64,000 bases of DNA from Deltaproteobacteria bacterium RBG_16_64_85. Its GTDB lineage: Bacteria; Desulfobacterota; Deferrimicrobia; Deferrimicrobiales; Deferrimicrobiaceae. Positions 32,780 through 48,997 of the stretch are shown piece after piece (positions within the stretch are counted from its first letter, which is position 1; every line of letters starts with the position of its first letter). The DNA is taken from contig MGQW01000008.1 of the NCBI GenBank assembly GCA_001798885.1, positions 1,146 to 65,145 of the forward strand, read 5' to 3'. The translations under genes were made by a program, and so were the position numbers. The notes under the pieces are model-generated. The model saw only the letters and a program-made list of their open reading frames with translations, did no database searches and had not been told where the DNA came from.

Positions 32780-32866
32780 GATTCTCCGGAGCCGTCCACC
32801 GGACAGCCTGCGTGAGCCCCCTCACCGGGGGGAGATGACGGTCGACTCCTCCGGATGGCTTTGCGC

Positions 32867-32937
32867 TGGGAGGTCGTCTAACGGCAGGACAGGGGCCTTT
32901 GGAGCCTCTAATGAAGGTTCGACCCCTTCCCTCCCAG
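32867..32937 (+). tRNA. tRNA-Gln (anticodon UUG); 3' CCA not encoded
   Basis: Hand-folded cloverleaf: U1-A72 acceptor pair, U8, A14, G18G19, A21, U33, anticodon TTG, TTCGA T-loop, G73 discriminator; acceptor TGGGAGG/CCTCCCA. Confidence 0.65.
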
Positions 32938-33090
32938 CCCTCTTTCCCCGAATGCCTTCCCGCGCCCGGTGCGCATCTTCTCGCGGCCCCCGCTAAAGTT
33001 CTTCTCCAGGCCCGTCGATACCTCTTATAGGGAACGACGGAATGAAGGAGTTCAGGGACGGTTGGTTTGACTCGAAGGGGATGAAACGCA

Positions 33091-36743: not shown

Positions 36744-37061
36744 ATGAGAAGGATCCTTTTTCCCGTATTCGGCCTGCTGACGATCGCCCTCCTTGCCGGC
36801 TGCTACCCCAGGGGGCAGATTTACGGCGTGGGCAACGAGGGGGGACTGATCTTCGCGGTGAACCCACCGGACGCCGAGGTCGTGCTGGATGGCGTCATCC
36901 AGGGAAAGGCTTCGGAGTTCACCGAGGAGAGGTATCTCAAAGTGGCCAGTGGAACCCACAAGCTGGAGATTCGGCTCGCCGGCTTCGAGACGTACAACCG
37001 GGAACTCTACGTGTCGAATTCCCTGCTGCGGATCGAAACGACGCTGGTCCGGAAAGAGTAA
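36744..37061 (+). CDS. PEGA-domain-like lipoprotein
   Basis: Lipobox LLAGC; NPPDAEVVLDG...GTHKLEIRLAGFETY resembles a PEGA domain. Confidence 0.45.
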   Translation: MRRILFPVFGLLTIALLAGCYPRGQIYGVGNEGGLIFAVNPPDAEVVLDGVIQGKASEFTEERYLKVASGTHKLEIRLAGFETYNRELYVSNSLLRIETTLVRKE

Positions 37062-37071
37062 AGGGAAAATC

Positions 37072-37179
37072 GGGGACGTTCTTGAACTTTTGGAAAAGTT
37101 GGGGACGTTCTTGAACTTTTACAACATCCCTTCATAAAAAGTTCAAGAACGTCCCCAACTTTATTACAAGAACGTCCCC
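37072..37179. repeat. Cluster of four copies of a 20-nt motif GGGGACGTTCTTGAACTTTT (two direct, then two inverted) filling the gap between convergent genes
   Basis: Copies at 37072-37091 and 37101-37120; reverse complement AAAAAGTTCAAGAACGTCCCC at 37136-37156; partial CAAGAACGTCCCC at 37167-37179; same family recurs at 48.9 kb. Confidence 0.7.
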
Positions 37180-37194
37180 AATATCAAACGCCCT

Positions 37195-38547
37195 TTACTT
37201 TTTCCGGACGGCTCCCCACCAGGCCTTGAGACGATCCGAGATCGTCTTTTCGTAGCCCGCTTCCGAGGGCTCGTAATATTTGCGCCGGCCGAGCGTCTCG
37301 GGGAAGTAGTTCTCCGGGACGAAGGCCTCCGCGAAGTCGTGGGGGTACTGGTACTTCTCGCCGTATCCCAGCTCCTTCATCAGGCGGGTGGGGGCGTTGC
37401 GCAGGTGCATCGGCACCGGGTGGCTCCCCCCGCCCTGCACGTCCTTCATGGCACGGCCGAACGCCGTGTAGACCCGGTTGCTCTTGGGCGCGGTGGCGAG
37501 ATAGACGACCGCCTGGGCCAGTGCCAGCTCGCCTTCGGGGCTCCCCAGCGTGCGGTACGCCTCTGCCGCCGCAAGGGTGAGCTGGAGGGCTCCCGGGGCC
37601 GCATTCCCGACGTCCTCCGACGCGAAGCGGATCATCCGGCGGGCGATGTAGAGGGGGTCCTCGCCCGCCGAAAGCATCCGCGCCAGCCAGTAGAGGGCGG
37701 CGTCGGGGTCGGACCCCCGCAGGCTCTTGTGGAATGCCGAGATGAGATTGTAGTGCTCCTCCCCGTCCTTGTCATAGAGCAGCGCCTTCCTCCGGAGCGC
37801 CTCCTCGGCCACGGGCACGTCGACCTGCTCGAGGTTCCGGTGCTCCGCGATCGCTACCGCTGCCTCCAGCGCGTTCAGGGCGACGCGCGCGTCCCCGTCC
37901 GAGATCTCCACGATGTGCCGTAGGGCGTCGGGGGAGAGGAACGATTCCTTCTTTCCCAGTCCCCTTTCCGCTTCGGTCAATGCCCGCCGCGCGATGATTT
38001 CCACCTCGGCCGGAGCCAGGGGAGTGAGGACGAGAACGCGACAACGGGAAAGAAGCGCGTTGCGGATCTCGAACGAAGGATTCTCCGTCGTGGTTCCGAA
38101 GAGAGTGACGGTGCCGTCCTCGACGAATGGGAGCAGCGCGTCCTGCTGGGCCTTGTTGAACCGGTGGATCTCGTCGATGAAGAGGATCGCGGGTCGGCCC
38201 GCGGAGCGTCCGCTCCGTTTCAACTCGGAGAGCGCGTCCTTGATTTCCTTGATCCCGGAGAGGACGGCCGAATAGGGGAGAAAGACCGCCTTCGTCTCCG
38301 TGGCGATGATCCGGGCGAGCGTCGTCTTCCCCGATCCGGGGGGGCCCCAGAAGATCAGCGAGGGAAGGGGACGGGCCGAGAGCACAGAGGAGAGGAACCT
38401 CCCCTCCCCCAGGATCTCCTCCTGCCCGACGAATTCGAGGAGCGTCCTGGGGCGCATCCGGTCGGCAAGGGGAGCGCGGGGCGGCTGCGCGCCGGGAAAC
38501 AGCGAAAATGGCGGCCGGGGCTCGGTCATGGGCTTTCTCTTTTTCAT
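37195..38547 (-). CDS. rarA: Replication-associated recombination protein A (RarA/MgsA AAA+ ATPase)
   Basis: Walker A GPPGSGKTT, LFIDEIHRFNK, and the C-terminal MgsA helical domain. Confidence 0.9.
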   Translation of the reverse strand: MKKRKPMTEPRPPFSLFPGAQPPRAPLADRMRPRTLLEFVGQEEILGEGRFLSSVLSARPLPSLIFWGPPGSGKTTLARIIATETKAVFLPYSAVLSGIKEIKDALSELKRSGRSAGRPAILFIDEIHRFNKAQQDALLPFVEDGTVTLFGTTTENPSFEIRNALLSRCRVLVLTPLAPAEVEIIARRALTEAERGLGKKESFLSPDALRHIVEISDGDARVALNALEAAVAIAEHRNLEQVDVPVAEEALRRKALLYDKDGEEHYNLISAFHKSLRGSDPDAALYWLARMLSAGEDPLYIARRMIRFASEDVGNAAPGALQLTLAAAEAYRTLGSPEGELALAQAVVYLATAPKSNRVYTAFGRAMKDVQGGGSHPVPMHLRNAPTRLMKELGYGEKYQYPHDFAEAFVPENYFPETLGRRKYYEPSEAGYEKTISDRLKAWWGAVRKK

Positions 38548-38860
38548 TATATTCCGGATTGTCGGAAGTGGCGATGCAGGCGATGTCGGAGCATGATTAC
38601 CCCGGCGACGTTTCGTATTTACAACGTATTTGCAAAGCGGGTGAAATCAGGAGCCGCCGGACTCTCCGCGAATTAGAAAAGATCGCGATTGAAAGTGCCC
38701 TCGGAAAAATTTAAACTGCCTCCGGGAACATGCCGGGGAATTGGGACGCATCTTGGAGATGGATGCGAGCGATATCTTTCCGGTAGTGCAGTCAGCTCGC
38801 CGGCAGAAATCGGATCAGGATATGATTCCGTTGAAAATTCAGAACCATTAAGGGGAGTCT

Positions 38861-39910
38861 ATGAAAAAAGCGCTGACCGTCCATCTGGTTCTGGTGGGTT
38901 TGTTTGTCATCGGATTACAGGGAAAGGGATTCTGTCAGGAGCCAAGGAAAGACTGCTTTTTCTTCTCCAGTCTCCATTATACCGCGAAAGGGATGGCTTA
39001 TTGGTACGACAAGACCAATGGTGGATTGGAAATCCTTACAGGTGTCCCTTATTCAAACCTCGGGTGTAAGAATTGCCATACCCCGGGGTGTGATCGGTGC
39101 CATAAAGTTGAAAAGGATGGGAAAGCAGCCTATTCCACCAAAGCAGCAAAGAAACAAGAGATGTGTCTTGAATGCCATGCCCGTGAGCAGGCGATCCTTA
39201 AAATTGACAGGGCATCGAAACAGGAGGATGTCCATTTTGCTCTGGGAATGGCTTGTATGGACTGTCATTCCCAAAGAGAGGTGCATGGGGATGGGATCGA
39301 ATATGTCTCCATGAAACAAACTGGGGCCATGGATACAAAATGCGAGAAATGCCATAACTCCACCAAACCAACCGATTCTCATGCTGTACATAAGGAAAAA
39401 CTGGATTGTAAATCATGCCATGTTCGACATGTCGTCAGTTGTACGAATTGTCACTTTGAAACCCTTGTCAAAGAAGGAAAGCGTGTCTCCATTCCGGTTT
39501 CCGGATGGGTATTCCTCATGAACTACGGCGGAAAGGTAACTTCGGCGAACATGCAGACCTTCTTGGTAAAAGGCGACAAGACATTTTTCATGTTTGCCCC
39601 GCAGATGAGTCACTCTGTGATGAAAATGGGCAGGAAATGTGAAGATTGTCACGGCACAGAAACCATGAGACAGGTTCAGAAGGGGAATGTTTCTTTAACC
39701 TGGCTTGAAGAAGGAAAAGTAATGAATTTAAAGGGGGTTATTCCGGTAGTGGATGGAGTGGACTACCAATGTGTCTATCAAGATTTCAAGGAAGGAAAAT
39801 GGATTCCGATCAAAAATCCTTCCAAACCGATTTATCATTATCCCGCATTTGGTAAACCTCTTACGAAAGAACAACTCGATAAGCTTGCGGAGCGTATGGG
39901 GAGAAAGTAA
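38861..39910 (+). CDS. Secreted octaheme c-type cytochrome
   Basis: Signal peptide plus eight CxxCH motifs (CKNCH, CDRCH, CLECH, CMDCH, CEKCH, CKSCH, CTNCH, CEDCH); markedly lower G+C and A/T-rich codon choice than flanking genes. Confidence 0.85.
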   Translation: MKKALTVHLVLVGLFVIGLQGKGFCQEPRKDCFFFSSLHYTAKGMAYWYDKTNGGLEILTGVPYSNLGCKNCHTPGCDRCHKVEKDGKAAYSTKAAKKQEMCLECHAREQAILKIDRASKQEDVHFALGMACMDCHSQREVHGDGIEYVSMKQTGAMDTKCEKCHNSTKPTDSHAVHKEKLDCKSCHVRHVVSCTNCHFETLVKEGKRVSIPVSGWVFLMNYGGKVTSANMQTFLVKGDKTFFMFAPQMSHSVMKMGRKCEDCHGTETMRQVQKGNVSLTWLEEGKVMNLKGVIPVVDGVDYQCVYQDFKEGKWIPIKNPSKPIYHYPAFGKPLTKEQLDKLAERMGRK

Positions 39911-40000
39911 CCGAAGACACACGATTTAACAATGCGTCATTGTCCGCGGAAAGGAAAGTATTCAGGCCTCGTGGAGATCGTGCGGGCCCGGAACGGAATG

Positions 40001-40028
40001 GACCGGTTCATCCTGTGACCGGTTCATC
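40001..40028. repeat. Tandem direct repeat GACCGGTTCATC-N4-GACCGGTTCATC
   Basis: Two exact 12-mers 4 nt apart, between the convergent cytochrome and OsmC-like genes. Confidence 0.3.
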
Positions 40029-40045
40029 GGGACCCTTTCACGCAC

Positions 40046-40480
40046 CTATCGAAAGAACCCCTCGACCATGACCTTTGTCTTTATCGAATTGGAAATCAGA
40101 CAGTTGGCTTCCACCTTGGCCATTATCTCTTTGGCCTTTCCGGCATCCTCACTGTTCTTCAAGGTCACCTTCGGTCTCAGCGTGACCGAAGTCACCTGAA
40201 ACTTGCCGTCAACCAGTTCCAGGCGGCCTTCGGCATCGCACTCGTAGTCCGTAAAGGACAAGCCAGCCCGTTCGGCAAAAGCCAGAAACGTAGACAGGAC
40301 ACAAACATTCACAGAGGCAACATACAGATCCTCCGGTGACCAAATGCCCTCGTGCCCCTTGAACTCCGGCGGAGTCGCCACCTGGATGTCGGGTTTCCCC
40401 GGCGACGAGGCCACTCCCATCTTTTGCCCGGTCCATTTCACCGCCGTACGATAGGAGTAGACTTTGCCACGGACTTCCAT
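40046..40480 (-). CDS. OsmC/Ohr-family peroxiredoxin-like protein
   Basis: About 140 aa with the OsmC fold pattern (...ASVNVCVLSTFLAFAER...EANCLISNSIK); the second ATG after GGGAGG is chosen as start; ORF track extends to 40600. Confidence 0.7.
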   Translation of the reverse strand: MEVRGKVYSYRTAVKWTGQKMGVASSPGKPDIQVATPPEFKGHEGIWSPEDLYVASVNVCVLSTFLAFAERAGLSFTDYECDAEGRLELVDGKFQVTSVTLRPKVTLKNSEDAGKAKEIMAKVEANCLISNSIKTKVMVEGFFR

Positions 40481-40734
40481 TTTCATACCTCCCGTCGTAT
40501 CTGTCCAAAACAGGTCTTTTCTAAAATGGAATGGTGCGTCGGCGTTCCTTCCACTCCGGTCTTCTTTTTCCCAGGAATGCCTGCACCCCTTCCACGGCAT
40601 CTTCCTTGGCGCAGAGGGTGGCGAACAGATGGATCGTCAGGCACAACGCGATTCACCAGACCGTGTTTTTCGGTCGCCATCCTTCCTTCTTCGAGAGCTC
40701 AAGGGAACCGTCGTCCCCCTCTTTACACGATTCC

Positions 40735-40941
40735 TCATTCCTCGATCTCTACGACATCTGGAACATATCCAGTCCCGCCGCCACCGCAGCTGGTCTGGCC
40801 GCCCATCTCGGCATCGATAAGATCCGCAAGGAGGCGGGCATGATCGACCAAACTACGTTTGCAGTAGAGGGGGTCGGGCAATCCGGCTGTCGCAATATCA
40901 TCCTTGGTGGTGGTCTCCGTAACGACGAACCTGGAACTCAT
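40735..40941 (-). CDS. Small hypothetical protein (about 68 aa, 3 Cys)
   Basis: ORF 40735..41010 trimmed to MSSRFVV...; no recognisable family; lies in the lower-GC island. Confidence 0.2.
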   Translation of the reverse strand: MSSRFVVTETTTKDDIATAGLPDPLYCKRSLVDHARLLADLIDAEMGGQTSCGGGGTGYVPDVVEIEE

Positions 40942-41187
40942 CCTATCCCCCTTGCAGGAAAAGGGCCCCGGTCCGCCTTGTGTGGTCGCTCCTCCCACGC
41001 TAAAATCCACGGATCCCGGCGATCCGCAGGGATGCTATAGTATCCCCGTAACCGGATCATTCGGCAATCGCTTTTCAAGCGACACCGAAAACGGTCGGAG
41101 AAAGTGAATCATTCGCACTGAAGGGTTGGTTTGCGTGGGAGTTACAGGTCTTTCTCTTTTCCTTCCGATATATTATCCTAATCCCCG

Positions 41188-42042
41188 ATGAAGTGCGCCG
41201 GGATCATCGCCAAGCACACCGACCCCCGGGCGGGAAAGATCGTCTCCGACCTTTGCGAATGGATCATCGCCCGCGGTCGGCGGGTGGTCCTCGACCGGGA
41301 GACCGCTGCCCTCGTCCCCCGCGGCGACGCCGTCGTCCGCTCCAAGCTGCCAGAGAAATGCGACTTCCTCATCGTCCTCGGCGGGGACGGCACGCTCCTT
41401 TCCGCCGCGCGGGTGGTTGGGACCTCCGGGAAGCCGATCCTGGGCGTGAACCTCGGGGCGCTGGGGTTCCTCACCGCGATCACGCTGGACGAGCTGTACC
41501 CCGTCCTGGAAAAGATCTTCAACTACGACTTCGACTACGACGAGCGGATGTTGCTGGTCGCCCACGTCCACCGGTTGGGCGAGCGCGTGGCCAACTACAC
41601 GGTCCTGAATGACGTGGTCATCAACAAGGGGGCGCTCGCCAAGATCATCGACATCGAGACGACTGCGGGAGAGATGTACCTGTCCACCTTCAAGGCCGAC
41701 GGCCTCATCATCTCGACGCCCACCGGATCGACGGGGTACTCCCTCTCGGCGCAGGGCCCCATCGTCTACCCGATGCTGCGCACGATACTGATCACCCCGA
41801 TCTGCCCGCACACGCTCACCAACCGGCCGCTCGTCATCCCGGACGACATGGTGGTCCGCGCGGAGCTGCGCTCCCGGGAGACCGACGTGTTCCTGACGCT
41901 CGACGGCCAGGTGGGGTTCGGGCTCCGCGAGAGGGACGTGGTGGAGGTGAAGAAGGCGGAGGCCCCCCTGCGGTTCTTCCGTTCCCCCTCCAAGGACTAC
42001 TTCACCGTCCTGCGCACCAAGCTCAAGTGGGGAGAGCGGTGA
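41188..42042 (+). CDS. nadK: NAD(+) kinase
   Basis: GGDGT motif, NE/D short motif, 284 aa. Confidence 0.9.
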   Translation: MKCAGIIAKHTDPRAGKIVSDLCEWIIARGRRVVLDRETAALVPRGDAVVRSKLPEKCDFLIVLGGDGTLLSAARVVGTSGKPILGVNLGALGFLTAITLDELYPVLEKIFNYDFDYDERMLLVAHVHRLGERVANYTVLNDVVINKGALAKIIDIETTAGEMYLSTFKADGLIISTPTGSTGYSLSAQGPIVYPMLRTILITPICPHTLTNRPLVIPDDMVVRAELRSRETDVFLTLDGQVGFGLRERDVVEVKKAEAPLRFFRSPSKDYFTVLRTKLKWGER

Positions 42043-46197: not shown

Positions 46198-48437
46198 CGG
46201 AAAAGAAAGGAAAGCGCAGGTACTGGAGGCGACGCCCCCGGCGCAAGGATGGAGAGGCAGCGGAATCCGCGCCTCCCGCTTCGCCTCAGTCCGGCCAGTT
46301 TCCCGGCGAGGGGGAATCCTCGAGCGGGGCGTCTGTTGAGGGAGAAGACGTACTTCCAGGAGGGGACAAGGTCCAAGCGCCGGAGGAATCGCAGGAGGCG
46401 CTGACGCGGCCGGAAATCCAGGAAGTCGCAAAAACGGTCGAGGGCGCAACCGCTGCGCCGAAGGGGCGCCGCCGCCGGTCGCGCCGGCGGGGAAGCAAGG
46501 GAGCGCAGGCAAGCCCCCCGGACCAGCCGCAGGGAGAGCAAGCGACGCAGCCGTTTGGGGGTTCTTCCTCCGAGGGGGCGACCGGCGCGGGGGAGGAAAC
46601 GCCGCAGGAATACGGTGCGACCCCGGCGATCCCGGAGGGTTTTCCAACGGAGGGGTGGGAGGAAACCGCGGCGGATCCGCAAGACACGAAAGGGGCGCAG
46701 GCGGGGGAACCCGGAGGCGAGCCGAAGAAGGGAAGGCGGCGCAGTCGCCGCCGGGGACGGCATCGCGGGAAAGGATTGCCGCAGACGCCCGAAGGGGAAC
46801 CCGTTCCCGAAGGTGCTCCCGCACAGGGAGAGTTCAACGGCGGGGCGGAAGGGACCTCCTCCGAGGAGCCCGTCGCGGCGCGAGAGGCCGTCGAGGAGAT
46901 CGAGGCGCGGCAGGACGAGGAGGAGTACGGGGAGGAAGCCTCCGCCGAAACCGCCGGCAAGGGGCCGCGGAAGGTGATGCTGATCGACGGGATCCACCCG
47001 GAAGAGATCCGGGTGGCATTCGTCAGCGACGGAAATCTCGACTACTTCGAGGTGGAGAACCAGCGCAGGAAGCAGTTCAAGGGGAACATCTACAAGGGCA
47101 AAGTGGTCAACGTCGCCCATGCGATCGAGGCGGCCTTCGTCGAGTTCGGAGGCGGGCGGCACGGCTTCCTCCCTCTGAACGAATACTGCGGCGGCGCGCT
47201 GATGGAGAACCTCGGGACGTGGAACGAGGGGGACAAGCGCCCCCACCTGCGGCCCGGGGTGGAGATCCTTGTCCAGGTGACCAAGGAGGAGTCCTCCATC
47301 AAAGGGGCCGCCCTCACCTCGTACATCAGCATCGCGGGGCGGTACCTCGTGATGATGCTGGGGATGAAACGGTACGGGATCTCGAAGAAGATCTCGAACG
47401 AGAAGGAGCGGGAGCGGATCCGGAAGAACATGGAGAAGCTGACCTACCCGGATCACCTGGGGTTCATCGTCCGGACGGTGGGGGCGGGGCAGCCCCTGAA
47501 AGATCTCAAGGCGGACCTCGAGAACCTGCTCAAGCTGTGGGACCGGACGGTGGAGGGGGCGCGCACGCAGAAGGCGCCGGCGCTTCTCTACGAGGAGCAG
47601 GACATCGTCATCCGGACGCTGCGGGACAGGTACTCGTCCGACGTCTCGGAAGTCCTGATGAACTCGGCCGACTCGTACCGCAAGGCGCAGGCGTTTTTCG
47701 ACGTCTACTATCCGAAGCAGATGCAGAAGCTCAGGCTGGTCCGGCAGAAACGGCCCCTGTTCTTCAAGTTCAACCTCGAGGAGCAGCTGGAGAGGGCCTG
47801 CGCCCGCAAGGTGGCGCTTCCCTCCGGCGGGCACATCGTGATCGACAGGACCGAGGCGCTGTGGTCGATCGACGTCAACTCCGGCCGGTCGGCCAAGGAC
47901 CGGGACATCGAGGACACGGCCTACCGGACCAACAAGGAAGCGGCATCGGAGGTGGCGCGGCAGCTCCGGATCCGCGATATGGGAGGCTTGATTGTCGTCG
48001 ATTTCATCGACATGGAGAACCGGAACCATATCAAGGACGTCGAGAAGACCCTCAAGGACACCCTGAAAAAGGACAAGGCGAAAAGCGACGTCTCCAACAT
48101 GGGGAAATTCGGTCTGGTGGGGATCAGCCGGCAGCGGATGGGGATCTCCTTCTACGACGTCGTGATGAAGGGATGCGACGTGTGCTTCGGCACGGGCTCC
48201 CATCCCACGCCGGACGCCGTGATGGTGCGTTTCCTGCGGCGGGTCCACAGCGAGCTGTCGCGCGACCCTGCGAAAGACCTGGCGGTCCGCGTGTCGCCGC
48301 AGCTCCTGGAGGCGCTGCTGAACCAGAAGCGCGAGGAGGTCACCTCCCTGGAGAAAATGTGCGGGGCCCGCGTCGTCTTCGAGGTGGACGCCTCTCTCCC
48401 CCCCGGGTCTTATTCCGTGGGCGAAGGGACGACATGA
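46194..48437 (+). CDS. rne: Ribonuclease E/G with a roughly 270-aa N-terminal Arg/Glu-rich disordered extension
   Basis: Catalytic core (S1 domain, DNase I-like region, Zn-link CxxC-type motifs) lies in the C-terminal 480 aa; N-terminus has multiple RRRSRRRG segments; ATG overlaps the upstream stop. Confidence 0.85.
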   Translation: MTEKKGKRRYWRRRPRRKDGEAAESAPPASPQSGQFPGEGESSSGASVEGEDVLPGGDKVQAPEESQEALTRPEIQEVAKTVEGATAAPKGRRRRSRRRGSKGAQASPPDQPQGEQATQPFGGSSSEGATGAGEETPQEYGATPAIPEGFPTEGWEETAADPQDTKGAQAGEPGGEPKKGRRRSRRRGRHRGKGLPQTPEGEPVPEGAPAQGEFNGGAEGTSSEEPVAAREAVEEIEARQDEEEYGEEASAETAGKGPRKVMLIDGIHPEEIRVAFVSDGNLDYFEVENQRRKQFKGNIYKGKVVNVAHAIEAAFVEFGGGRHGFLPLNEYCGGALMENLGTWNEGDKRPHLRPGVEILVQVTKEESSIKGAALTSYISIAGRYLVMMLGMKRYGISKKISNEKERERIRKNMEKLTYPDHLGFIVRTVGAGQPLKDLKADLENLLKLWDRTVEGARTQKAPALLYEEQDIVIRTLRDRYSSDVSEVLMNSADSYRKAQAFFDVYYPKQMQKLRLVRQKRPLFFKFNLEEQLERACARKVALPSGGHIVIDRTEALWSIDVNSGRSAKDRDIEDTAYRTNKEAASEVARQLRIRDMGGLIVVDFIDMENRNHIKDVEKTLKDTLKKDKAKSDVSNMGKFGLVGISRQRMGISFYDVVMKGCDVCFGTGSHPTPDAVMVRFLRRVHSELSRDPAKDLAVRVSPQLLEALLNQKREEVTSLEKMCGARVVFEVDASLPPGSYSVGEGTT

Positions 48438-48889
48438 TCGAACGGAAGGACAGGGTGGACCCCTCCGTCCAGGACCGCGCCACGCAGGATCGGCTGCACC
48501 GCCTCTGCCGCCGGTACATCCGGGTGGCCTTTTTCTACCTTGCCCTGGGCCTGCTCCTGGGCGCGGGGATGCTCGCCTTCGGCAACGACAACTTCCAGTT
48601 CGTCCACACCCACATGCTGCTCATCGGGTTCGTCCTCTTCCTGATCTACGGCATCGGGTTCAAGCTGATCCCCACGATGTTCTTCGGTCTGCCCCGGGTC
48701 GCCTCCATCGGCTGGGCGGAAGTCCAGTTCTGGCTGGCCAACGTCGGGCTGGCGGGCATGCTGGTCGGTGCCATGATGCCGGTGGGCCTGGGGCTGGACC
48801 GGATCTCCGTCCTCTTCGGGCTCGTCGAAGCCGCCGCAGGGATTCTCTTCGCGGCCCTGATGGGAAAAACGATCCAGGGCCGTTCCTGA
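48434..48889 (+). CDS. Hypothetical 4-TM membrane protein
   Basis: 151 aa, hydrophobic; ATG overlaps the rne stop; the long ORF 46655..48889 is otherwise an off-frame artefact. Confidence 0.5.
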   Translation: MIERKDRVDPSVQDRATQDRLHRLCRRYIRVAFFYLALGLLLGAGMLAFGNDNFQFVHTHMLLIGFVLFLIYGIGFKLIPTMFFGLPRVASIGWAEVQFWLANVGLAGMLVGAMMPVGLGLDRISVLFGLVEAAAGILFAALMGKTIQGRS

Positions 48890-48997
48890 AAACTTTTGTC
48901 TGAAGTTCGGGGACGTTCTTAAACTTTTTAATGTCCCCTTGCCCAGGGATTAAAAAGTTTAAGAACGTCCCCAGACAAAAGTTTTCAGGAACGCCTG
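48878..48997. repeat. About 120-bp near-perfect nested palindrome containing inverted copies of GGGGACGTTCTTAAACTTTTTAA
   Basis: Outer arms CCTGAAAACTTTTGTCTG / CAGACAAAAGTTTTCAGG; inner arms share the 37.1-kb repeat family; the palindrome overlaps the stop codon at 48887-48889. Confidence 0.7.

What the first reader, a model, noticed from the sequence alone, without database searches (positions are those of the whole stretch)
37062..37190. Dispersed palindromic repeat family GGGGACGTTCTTRAACTTTT filling convergent intergenic gaps (locus 1)
The 133-bp gap between the PEGA-like gene and rarA is almost entirely two direct plus two inverted copies of a 20-nt motif. It can fold into a long nested hairpin: copy 2 pairs with copy 1' over 20 bp with a 15-nt loop, and copy 1 pairs with copy 2' over about 13 bp. 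The same motif with one R difference forms the core of a second palindrome at 48.9 kb. Two occurrences within 64 kb imply many genomic copies. This resembles REP/BIME or MITE-like elements and could act as a bidirectional terminator, an mRNA stabiliser or a protein-binding site. The element does not match any repeat family I can name.
Basis: seen in the sequence. Interest (0 to 1): 0.65.

Follow-up and report, generated by a model that had tools for sequence, protein, structure and literature searches.

The report
Repeat family of a RAYT-like transposase
The palindromic repeats between the PEGA-like gene and rarA are real copies of a dispersed 20-24-nt inverted-repeat family that, in related genomes of the uncultured phylum Deferrimicrobiota, also brackets a single-copy REP-type tyrosine transposase gene, so this is a new lineage-specific example of a known kind of small bacterial mobile repeat.

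Summary
The window holds six copies of GGGGACGTTCTTRAACTTTT at two loci (0.01 expected by chance), and both loci fold into very stable hairpins.

A scan of species-representative genomes found the exact 20-mer in 90 DNA stretches. Nearly all lie in about a dozen Deferrimicrobiaceae-type MAGs, with at least 22 unit copies in one complete 2.32-Mb genome.

Main features of the family:
- Copies occur as singlets, as hairpin doublets of about 57 or about 113 nt, and as nested multi-tier clusters.
- The GGGG end always faces the flanking gene, typically 3-11 nt after its stop codon.
- There are no target-site duplications.
- The two arms of a doublet co-vary.

In eight related genomes or metagenome contigs, a roughly 300-aa Y1/HUH transposase is flanked by inverted copies of this motif. 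It passes Pfam Y1_Tnp; its best NCBIfam hit is the REP-associated tyrosine transposase and its best PDB hit is E. coli TnpA_REP. It always sits at the same syntenic position.

Most of 57 more distant homologues are also flanked by inverted repeats beginning GGG(G)ACG. This matches the published "TIRYT/TIRtron" class (TnpA_REP subclass 2.1).

Verdict: a new member of a known kind. The RNA-level roles (terminator, mRNA stabiliser) remain inferred.

The parts
37047..37065 (+). Outermost palindrome arm of locus 1: last four codons (VRKE), TAA stop (37059-37061) and 4 nt after the PEGA-like gene
   Evidence: Pairs with 37191-37209, 19 nt at 95%. The same arrangement is seen in the orthologous locus L032.
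37072..37091 (+). Unit copy 1 (forward), G variant, GGGGACGTTCTTGAACTTTT; second tier of the nested hairpin
   Evidence: Exact match; pairs with 37167-37182.
37095..37120 (+). Left arm of the inner hairpin; contains unit copy 2 (37101-37120)
   Evidence: 26-nt perfect inverted repeat. Arms are conserved 19/20 and 20/20 in orthologue L032.
37121..37136 (.). 16-nt loop of the inner hairpin
   Evidence: The loop has diverged (9/17 identical) from orthologue L032 while the arms are conserved.
37137..37162 (-). Right arm of the inner hairpin; contains unit copy 1' (37137-37156, reverse)
37167..37181 (-). Partial unit copy 2' (reverse; core GGGGACGTTCTTG plus 2 nt), second-tier partner of copy 1
   Evidence: nhmmer E = 0.0099.
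37191..37209 (-). Outermost palindrome arm of locus 1: TAA stop (37195-37197) and last four codons (VRKK) of rarA. It contains CTTTACTTTTT, a sequence otherwise seen only inside clusters of this repeat family.
   Evidence: The 11-mer occurs once in the window (0.00 expected) and, in the fetched loci, only within or beside repeat clusters.
48881..48902 (+). Outer stem arm of locus 2; includes the TGA stop (48887-48889) of ORF 46655-48889
   Evidence: 22-nt perfect inverted repeat with 48972-48993. It is a member of a two-tier composite with compensatory changes in 9 copies.
48903..48908 (+). Asymmetric 6-nt bulge AAGTTC, conserved in the composite subfamily
   Evidence: Present on one side only in all 9 aligned copies.
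48909..48932 (+). Forward 24-nt unit, A variant, GGGGACGTTCTTAAACTTTTTAAT
   Evidence: This is the commonest form of the family.
48933..48948 (.). 16-nt loop of locus 2
48949..48972 (-). Reverse 24-nt unit, A variant
48972..48993 (-). Outer stem arm of locus 2 (partner of 48881-48902)

Best explanation
Both loci are clusters of a lineage-specific family of short, non-autonomous repeats. The unit is a 20-24-nt terminal-inverted-repeat sequence, GGGGACGTTCTT[A/G/C]AACTTTT(TAAT).

Two units in inverted orientation form a hairpin doublet, organised like a REPIN. Doublets can be nested inside one another to give multi-tier hairpins. Locus 1 has three tiers, the outermost decayed. Locus 2 is a two-tier composite.

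The family is the cognate repeat of a single-copy, vertically inherited Y1 (HUH) tyrosine transposase of the RAYT/TnpA_REP superfamily. This enzyme belongs to the long form that carries a C-terminal DnaA_C-like helix-turn-helix region (TIRYT; subclass 2.1). In related genomes its gene is bracketed by the same units in inverted orientation.

Shown here:
- the repeats, their dispersal and their clade restriction;
- the bracketing of the transposase gene;
- the absence of target-site duplications;
- co-variation of hairpin arms;
- placement just after stop codons.

Inferred, not shown:
- The transposase copies or moves the doublets through a single-stranded hairpin DNA intermediate, as shown for IS200/IS605 TnpA and proposed for E. 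coli TnpA_REP.
- Nested clusters arise by insertion into, or duplication within, existing copies.
- Once transcribed at the 3' end of both convergent mRNAs, the hairpins act as 3' barriers. Because they start within 15 nt of the stop codon, they may also damp translation of the upstream gene, as E. coli REPs do.
For: Family and distribution:
- The 20-mer occurs 5 times in the window against 0.01 expected.
- It occurs in 90 genome stretches, almost all from about a dozen Deferrimicrobiaceae/'Deltaproteobacteria' MAGs.
- There are 176 profile-detected units in those stretches: at least 22 in the complete 2.32-Mb genome CP070783 and 56 in JACRIV01, the closest relative of the window (synteny at 81-86% identity).

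Transposase link:
- A 291-308-aa ORF is flanked by a forward unit upstream (about 117 nt before the ATG in the six genome-scan loci, about 50 nt in L091/L092) and a reverse unit at or within about 50 nt after its stop. This is seen in L021, L023, L024, L025, L056, L085 and in L091/L092.
- It scores 32-35 bits against Pfam Y1_Tnp (cutoff 23).
- Its only NCBIfam hit is REP_Tyr_transpos (63-68 bits).
- Its best PDB hit is 4ER8 TnpA_REP, with the HUH motif and catalytic Tyr aligned. NHFH and RYIHLNP are invariant in 22 homologues.
- There is one copy per genome among the fetched loci.
- Synteny is conserved: ETF, UDP-glucose dehydrogenase, epimerase, transposase, TrmI, TtuA.
- Homologues at about 40% identity carry Bac_DnaA_C above its cutoff.
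- Of 57 metagenomic homologue loci at 32-52% identity, most are flanked by an inverted repeat beginning GGG(G)ACG, about 45-70 nt before the ATG and at the stop codon. This fits the published TIR consensus GGGGWSAS of TIRYTs (PMC3733652; PMC6006769).

Element biology:
- No target-site duplication: the best direct repeat at junctions averages 1.47 nt against 1.70 in controls.
- The variable base 13 is the same in both arms in 32 of 34 doublets.
- In the two-tier composite, 13 of 39 pairs show compensatory changes.
- At orthologous loci the arms are 199/200 identical, against 76% for spacers and 85% for flanks.
Against: - No transposase homologue lies in the 64-kb window, and the rest of this genome could not be examined.
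- The NCBIfam REP_Tyr_transpos score is below the curated cutoff of 80.
- A single unit is not a palindrome and has no GTAG tag, so the mechanism worked out for E. coli REP/TnpA_REP may not transfer directly.
- PMC6006769 reports that no REP-like sequences were found next to subclass 2.1 genes. No biochemistry for this subclass was found in the papers read here.
- No clean filled-site versus empty-site pair was found, and many copies sit at orthologous positions. Present-day mobility is therefore not shown.
- The arm-conservation figures carry an ascertainment bias, because loci were retrieved by an exact 20-mer.
- Palindromic co-variation cannot separate selection for a hairpin from copying of doublets as units.
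Confidence: 0.8

Rival explanations
1. The motif is a host-selected functional site, such as an RNA 3'-end hairpin or a binding site for a host protein. It would be kept by purifying selection after each gene, and it would not be mobile DNA. On this view the transposase gene merely lies next to two such sites.
For: - The arms are more conserved than the neighbouring coding sequence at orthologous loci.
- 47 of 68 assigned gene ends lie within 15 nt of the GGGG end.
- Some stop-proximal units stay exact while the partner arm decays (group E).
- E. coli REPs within 15 nt of a stop codon are reported to affect translation (Liang 2015, as cited in PMC12306157).
Against: - Inverted repeats beginning GGG(G)ACG bracket most homologues of the transposase across a wide clade, while the rest of the repeat differs. 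This ties the sequence to the enzyme, not to host genes.
- Composite multi-tier units with the same idiosyncratic 6-nt bulge recur at non-orthologous loci.
- Spacing between arms varies from 16 to more than 70 nt.
- The elements are not canonical terminators.
- This rival is compatible with secondary co-option, so it is partly not exclusive of the best explanation.
Confidence: 0.1
2. A classical MITE: a deletion derivative of a DDE-type insertion sequence with these terminal inverted repeats, mobilised in trans by that transposase.
For: The units behave as terminal inverted repeats with the GGGG end outward. Element sizes of 57-220 nt are in the MITE range.
Against: - There are no target-site duplications.
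- About 550 kb of fetched flanking DNA holds no recurrent transposase other than the Y1 enzyme.
- The only gene bracketed by the units is a Y1/HUH transposase.
Confidence: 0.04
3. Recombination sites of another system (integron attC-like sites) or palindromes generated locally by replication fold-back, with no dedicated enzyme.
For: The imperfect palindromes lie at the 3' ends of genes. Outer stems extend into locus-specific sequence, including stop codons.
Against: - Flanking genes are ordinary housekeeping genes in mixed orientations.
- No integrase was seen.
- The same 20-24-nt sequence recurs at about a hundred unrelated loci in many genomes, which local fold-back cannot produce.
- The outer stem of locus 2 is itself a recurrent module.
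Confidence: 0.02

Closest known systems
TIRtrons / TIRYT-associated TIR repeat families (Di Nocera et al. 2013, PMC3733652); TnpA_REP subclass 2.1 (Quentin et al. 2018, PMC6006769)
   Same: - A long (about 300 aa) Y1/HUH transposase related to RAYTs, with a C-terminal DnaA_C/HTH-type region.
- The gene is bracketed by terminal inverted repeats that are not themselves hairpins.
- The TIR begins GGGGAC, against the published consensus GGGGWSAS.
- The TIRs form a moderately abundant genomic family arranged as singles, dimers and groups.
   Different: - The sequence after GGGGAC departs from the consensus (GT where AS is expected).
- The host lineage (Deferrimicrobiota / MBNT15) is not among the groups named in the parts of those papers read here.
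- Features documented here that were not seen in the parts of those papers I read: nested multi-tier hairpins, a conserved two-tier composite with a 6-nt bulge, tight placement after (often TAA) stop codons, and conservation at orthologous loci.
REPINs and RAYTs (Bertels & Rainey 2011, PMC3116915; PMC5581495)
   Same: - Two repeat units in inverted orientation form a hairpin doublet that appears to be the replicating unit.
- Singlets look like decayed doublets.
- The cognate transposase is single-copy, vertically inherited, and flanked by the repeats.
   Different: - The unit is not an imperfect palindrome and has no GTAG-type tag.
- Copy number is tens rather than hundreds per genome.
- The transposase is not of the short RAYT type, and it scores below the NCBIfam REP_Tyr_transpos cutoff.
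- Clusters are nested (F F R R) rather than tandem.
E. coli REP/BIME elements and TnpA_REP (PDB 4ER8; PMC3479197)
   Same: - Extragenic palindromic repeats concentrated after gene 3' ends and between convergent genes.
- The transposase is the best solved-structure relative, with HUH and Tyr conserved.
- The expected RNA effects are the same: a 3' hairpin barrier, and a translation effect when within 15 nt of the stop.
   Different: - REP units are 20-40-nt hairpins with a 5' GTAG.
- BIMEs alternate unit orientation with defined linkers.
- Here the stems are 20-26 bp, perfect, and formed between units.
DDE-type MITEs such as Correia elements of Neisseria (own knowledge)
   Same: Short intergenic elements bounded by roughly 25-nt terminal inverted repeats, often co-transcribed with neighbouring genes.
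   Different: MITEs make target-site duplications and derive from DDE insertion sequences. Neither is seen here.

Membership tests
TIRtron / TIRYT TIR family (TnpA_REP subclass 2.1) | Y1 transposase with HUH motif and catalytic tyrosine, related to RAYT | tested here: met
   Pfam Y1_Tnp 32-35 bits against a cutoff of 23. NHFH and RYIHLNP are invariant in 22 homologues. HUH and Tyr align to 4ER8 TnpA_REP. This was tested in related genomes, not in the window.
TIRtron / TIRYT TIR family (TnpA_REP subclass 2.1) | Transposase gene flanked by terminal inverted repeats that are not REP hairpins, with a GGGG[AT][CG]A[CG]-like start | tested here: met
   A forward unit lies upstream and a reverse unit at or just after the stop in 8 loci. 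Arms beginning GGG(G)ACG flank most of 57 homologue loci. GGGGACGT matches 6 of the 8 consensus positions. A single unit does not fold.
TIRtron / TIRYT TIR family (TnpA_REP subclass 2.1) | C-terminal extension with a Bac_DnaA_C or HTH-like domain | tested here: inconclusive
   An extension of about 170 aa is present. Bac_DnaA_C scores only 14.5 bits (E = 0.036) in the CP070783 protein and gives no hit in the L025 protein. It scores above the cutoff (32.5-34.2 against 31.5) in full-length homologues at about 40% identity.
TIRtron / TIRYT TIR family (TnpA_REP subclass 2.1) | The TIR sequence forms a repeated family elsewhere in the same genome (singles, dimers, groups) | tested here: met
   At least 22 units in CP070783 and 56 in JACRIV01, arranged as singlets, doublets and nested groups.
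REPIN-RAYT system | Doublet of two inverted units forming a hairpin, over-represented in extragenic space | tested here: met
   34 forward/reverse doublets were found. Their arms co-vary: base 13 is concordant in 32 of 34 doublets, and 13 of 39 pairs in the two-tier composite show compensatory changes. Fold z-scores are -10 to -15.
REPIN-RAYT system | Single-copy RAYT flanked by the repeats, in the same genome | not testable with these tools
   Met in eight related genomes or contigs. The window has no homologue, and the rest of its genome is not available.
Canonical REP (GTAG- or CGTC-tagged) | Each unit is a 20-40-nt imperfect palindrome with a conserved terminal tetranucleotide | tested here: not met
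   The single unit has no stable fold (0 to -0.9 kcal/mol, z about +0.5 to +0.7). There is no GTAG. CGTC occurs inside the reverse complement of the arm, but the published CGTC-REP architecture of an 8-9-bp stem and 4-5-nt loop is absent.
RAYT equivalog (NCBIfam NF047646 REP_Tyr_transpos) | Score at or above the curated cutoff (80 bits) | tested here: not met
   63.5-68.3 bits. It is the only hit, but it is below the cutoff.
DDE-type MITE | Target-site duplication flanking the terminal inverted repeats | tested here: not met
   The best junction direct repeat averages 1.47 nt against 1.70 +/- 0.21 in shuffled controls.
Intrinsic (Rho-independent) terminator | GC-rich stem, short loop, T-run immediately 3' of the stem | tested here: not met
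   The consensus scan does not call either element. The loops are 16 nt and no T-run follows the stems.

The most novel reading that the evidence does not exclude
In Deferrimicrobiota, the TIRYT class (TnpA_REP subclass 2.1, reported to lack REPs) would maintain a true REPIN-like population with three properties:
- It is vertically inherited and held at orthologous sites across species.
- It grows by self-targeted insertion into its own hairpins, which would explain the nested multi-tier stems.
- It has been absorbed into gene ends. It supplies TAA stop codons and even the last codons of host proteins (for example VRKE*/VRKK* of the PEGA-like gene and RarA), and it places a 20-26-bp hairpin within the ribosome footprint of the stop codon.

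That would make it a built-in regulator of the 3' ends of dozens of housekeeping genes rather than mere selfish DNA.
Probability: 0.25. Interest if true: 0.5.

Novelty: new member of a known kind. Interest (0 to 1): 0.3.

Why it matters
- It assigns a previously unnamed repeat in an uncultured phylum (Deferrimicrobiota / MBNT15) to a known mechanism class, together with its probable enzyme.
- It adds a well-resolved case to the poorly studied TIRYT / subclass 2.1 branch of Y1 transposases, for which no biochemistry was found in the papers read here and whose link to genomic repeats has been questioned.
- For annotation: these hairpins mark gene 3' ends, overlap stop codons, can break assemblies, and can reveal mis-binned contigs.
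- The tight placement next to stop codons and the TAA enrichment give a testable hypothesis about translational or mRNA-stability effects.

Tried and rejected
- Rfam scan of the whole window: only a tRNA, nothing at either locus.
- Sigma-70 promoter and intrinsic-terminator scans: the elements are not called. A sigma-54 promoter reading of GGGGACG...TTGAAC was considered by eye and dropped, because the -12 element fails and most copies have A at position 13.
- Coding reading of the variant ATGAAAAAGTTTAAGAACGTCCCC (MKKFKNVP): considered and dropped, because only short open frames follow.
- DDE MITE: rejected, with no target-site duplication and no such transposase among recurrent neighbours.
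- Integron attC and CRISPR readings: rejected on gene content, orientation and spacing.
- Search for degenerate copies elsewhere in the window: none found.
- Search for the transposase in the window: none found.
- Attempt to find a clean empty-site orthologue to define insertion boundaries: the orthologous sets all carry some form of the element.
- Strand asymmetry of G-U versus C-A mismatches, to separate RNA from DNA selection: too few cases.
- Literature search for the motif string: only two unrelated primer hits.
- The Liang 2015 paper itself is not held, so it is cited through PMC12306157.

Full report
1. OBSERVATION

The sequence is as described. At locus 1 the 133-nt gap lies between a PEGA-domain ORF (36744-37061, +) and rarA/mgsA (37195-38547, -).
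- It holds three exact copies of GGGGACGTTCTTGAACTTTT: 37072-37091 (+), 37101-37120 (+) and 37137-37156 (-).
- It also holds a 13-nt partial copy at 37167-37179 (-).

At locus 2 the A variant occurs at 48909-48928 (+) and 48953-48972 (-).

Five matches to the 20-mer are found where 0.01 is expected. A profile built from 156 copies finds nothing else in the 64 kb.

- Locus 1 has a 26-bp perfect inner stem with a 16-nt loop, then a 16-nt second tier. A 19-nt outer tier (37047-37065 / 37191-37209) includes the last four codons and the stop of both convergent genes (VRKE* and VRKK*).
- Locus 2 has a 24-bp perfect stem and a 22-bp perfect outer stem that contains the upstream gene's TGA.
- Predicted folds are -97.7 and -78.9 kcal/mol as RNA (z = -13.4 and -14.0). 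They are -42 to -50 kcal/mol as DNA.

2. A DISPERSED, CLADE-RESTRICTED FAMILY

One scan of species-representative genomes found the exact 20-mer in 90 eight-kb stretches.
- Nearly all come from about a dozen MAGs labelled Candidatus Deferrimicrobiaceae or 'Deltaproteobacteria bacterium'. The phylum is Ca. Deferrimicrobiota.
- One of them is the complete 2.32-Mb chromosome CP070783.
- About two matches would be expected by chance in a collection of that size. This is my estimate, and it fits the few isolated hits in unrelated phyla.
- The profile detects 176 units in these stretches: at least 22 in CP070783 and 56 in JACRIV01. These are lower bounds, because only stretches holding an exact 20-mer were fetched.
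- JACRIV01 is the closest relative of the window. L032 is syntenic with window 30.7-37.4 kb at 81-86% identity and carries the orthologue of locus 1.

3. ANATOMY OF THE FAMILY

- The unit is GGGGACGTTCTT-[A 69% / G 21% / C 10%]-AACTTTT, usually extended to ...TTAAT.
- Outside the GGGG end lie about 14 AT-rich, G-poor bases with a loose AACTTTA / TTACTAAA box.
- The GGGG end always faces outward, toward the flanking gene.
- A single unit has no secondary structure of its own.
- Two inverted units form doublets with a modal length of 57 nt (20-nt arms, about 17-nt loop) or 113-116 nt (24-nt arms).
- Doublets are nested as F F R R or F F F R R R in several loci (L012, L017, L028, L082). Window locus 1 is one of these.
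- Window locus 2 belongs to a recurrent two-tier composite: outer stem AAAACTTTATCTG / CAGATAAAGTTTT with a conserved one-sided 6-nt bulge. Nine copies were found in at least five genomes.

4. HAIRPIN CO-VARIATION AND JUNCTIONS

- The variable base 13 is identical in both arms in 32 of 34 doublets (AA 16, GG 10, CC 6).
- In the composite, RNAalifold predicts 39 pairs, and 13 of them show compensatory double changes.
- This shows that the doublet or composite, not the single unit, is what is conserved or copied.
- It cannot tell RNA from single-stranded DNA, or selection from copying of whole doublets.
- No target-site duplications exist. The best junction direct repeat averages 1.47 nt against 1.70 +/- 0.21 in shuffled controls.

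5. RELATION TO GENES

I used a crude ORF test supported by third-codon-position GC content.
- 68 of 106 outermost units lie just after the stop of a gene.
- 13 lie next to a gene start.
- 25 are unassigned.
- The median stop-to-GGGG distance is 9.5 nt, and 47 of 68 are within 15 nt.

The stop codon of these genes is TAA in 36 of 55 cases, against 102 of 461 for other predicted genes in the same loci. The TAA usually lies inside the AT-rich outer box. Either the element end supplies the stop, or insertion favours such sequence.

At window locus 1, the 11-mer CTTTACTTTTT overlaps the rarA stop. It occurs nowhere else in the window, and in the fetched loci it occurs only within or beside repeat clusters. 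This suggests, by inference, that the terminal codons of rarA and of the PEGA-like gene are element-derived. L032 shows the same symmetry.

Flanking genes are ordinary housekeeping genes. The elements are not canonical intrinsic terminators.

6. THE ENZYME

Aligning orthologous loci exposed an ORF beginning MPRxxRIDFPGAxHHVYARGIEKR downstream of one unit.
- In six genomes a 256-308-aa ORF has a forward unit about 117 nt before its ATG and a reverse unit (AAAGTTCAGCAACGTCCCC or AAAAAGTTTAAGAACGTCCC) right after its stop.
- The 256-aa ORF in L024 contains an ambiguous base.
- Two further metagenome contigs show the same arrangement.
- The protein passes Pfam Y1_Tnp.
- Its only NCBIfam hit is REP-associated tyrosine transposase, below the cutoff (63-68 against 80 bits).
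- Its best PDB relative is E. coli TnpA_REP (4ER8), with HUH and the catalytic Tyr aligned. Both are invariant in 22 homologues.
- It occurs once per genome among the fetched loci.
- It always sits in the same neighbourhood: ETF, UDP-glucose dehydrogenase, epimerase, transposase, TrmI, TtuA.
- The family has 1881 detectable relatives, named 'REP element-mobilizing transposase RayT' by JGI.
- Relatives at about 40% identity carry a C-terminal Bac_DnaA_C domain above its cutoff, whereas the Deferrimicrobiaceae proteins give only a weak hit.
- Among 57 metagenomic homologue loci (32-52% identity) with enough flank, most are bracketed by an inverted repeat whose arm begins GGG(G)ACG. The arm lies about 45-70 nt before the ATG and at the stop, and the rest of the arm differs between loci.
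- The repeat is therefore tied to the enzyme across the clade.
- No homologue lies in the window itself.

7. COMPARISON WITH WHAT IS KNOWN

Di Nocera et al. (PMC3733652) described RAYT-like genes flanked by long TIRs instead of REPs.
- They named these 'TIRtrons' and the enzymes 'TIRYT'.
- The TIRs share a motif GGGGWSAS.
- They form moderately abundant genomic families arranged as singles, dimers and groups.

Quentin et al. (PMC6006769) place most TIRYTs in TnpA_REP subclass 2.1.
- This subclass is marked by a C-terminal DnaA_C/HTH domain.
- They note that no REP-like sequences were found beside these genes.

The present family fits this class on enzyme type, bracketing TIRs, the GGGGAC start and a repeated family. 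It fails the tests for canonical REP (the unit is not a palindrome and has no GTAG), for the NCBIfam RAYT equivalog, for DDE MITEs and for intrinsic terminators.

In organisation it works like a REPIN-RAYT system (PMC3116915, PMC5581495): hairpin doublets, decayed singlets, and a single-copy, vertically inherited transposase.

The exact motif was not found in the literature searched.

8. MECHANISM, AND WHAT IS SHOWN VERSUS INFERRED

Shown: the family, its clade restriction, the bracketing of the Y1 transposase, the absence of target duplication, arm co-variation and the placement next to stop codons.

Inferred from established knowledge of IS200/IS605 TnpA and TnpA_REP (PMC3479197, PMC6006769): single-strand, hairpin-guided cleavage and joining by the Y1 enzyme, with nested clusters arising by insertion into or duplication within existing hairpins.

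Inferred from E. coli REP biology: transcribed hairpins protect the 3' ends of both convergent mRNAs. Because they begin within 15 nt of the stop, they may also reduce translation of the upstream gene (Liang 2015, as summarised in PMC12306157).

At orthologous loci the arms are 199/200 identical, against 76% for spacers and 85% for flanks. This points to long persistence under constraint or homogenisation. The figure is inflated, because loci were selected by an exact 20-mer.

9. VERDICT

It is a new, lineage-specific member of a known kind, the TIR/REP-like repeats of a RAYT-family (TIRYT) transposase.

The points of modest interest are:
- the nested multi-tier hairpins;
- the conserved two-tier composite;
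- the TAA-stop association and the overlap with coding ends;
- a clear repeat family for a transposase subclass said to lack one.

Interest 0.3. Confidence in the main explanation 0.8.

Noticed in passing
window 38000-41200: A lower-GC segment (0.52 in 38001-40000 against about 0.64 elsewhere) lies directly beside rarA. It carries a multihaem cytochrome c ORF (38861-39910, Cytochrome_C7/c3 hits) and an OsmC-like ORF (40046-40600, minus strand). It may be an acquired island.
   Followed up: partly
window 32867-32937: A tRNA gene is the only Rfam hit in the window. The surrounding 76-nt stretch (32864-32939) is 100% identical to the syntenic L032 of JACRIV01, while surrounding genes are 81-86% identical.
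   Followed up: no
L002, L076 (DATHRT01, labelled Limnocylindria); L080 (labelled Gemmatimonadota): Contigs binned to unrelated phyla carry the same motif. L002 is syntenic with CP070783 block L029. They are probably mis-binned Deferrimicrobiaceae contigs, so the repeat could serve as a binning marker.
   Followed up: partly
L012 3451-3670 and 6110-6295; L017 335-518 (JACRIV01): Three-tier nested palindromes (F F F R R R). Each tier is a distinct unit variant (AAACTTTTCAG outer, CAACTTTACTTTT middle, C/GAACTTTC inner) joined by conserved linkers, and the same order recurs at different loci. This suggests the whole composite is copied as a unit.
   Followed up: partly
55 gene ends next to units in L001-L090 and the window: The TAA stop codon is strongly enriched (36 of 55, against 102 of 461 in other predicted genes), and it usually lies inside the AT-rich outer box of the element.
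   Followed up: partly
L056 3967-4842, L025 6429-7355, L085 1917-2825 and homologues: The RAYT-like transposase has a C-terminal region of about 170 aa ending in a conserved W.G......Y.L motif. This region is recognisable as Bac_DnaA_C only in more distant homologues. Its DNA target is unknown.
   Followed up: partly
window 46655-48889: A 744-aa ORF with strong coding signal (third-position GC 0.91) has no Pfam family at E <= 0.001. Its TGA stop lies inside the outer stem of repeat locus 2.
   Followed up: no
L007/L068, L016/L089/L063: Doublets of about 113 nt sit between co-directional genes, with one arm 5-12 nt after a stop. The other arm lies 6-7 nt before the ribosome-binding site of the next gene (16-18 nt before its start codon). 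This is the intercistronic position known for E. coli malE-malF REPs.
   Followed up: no
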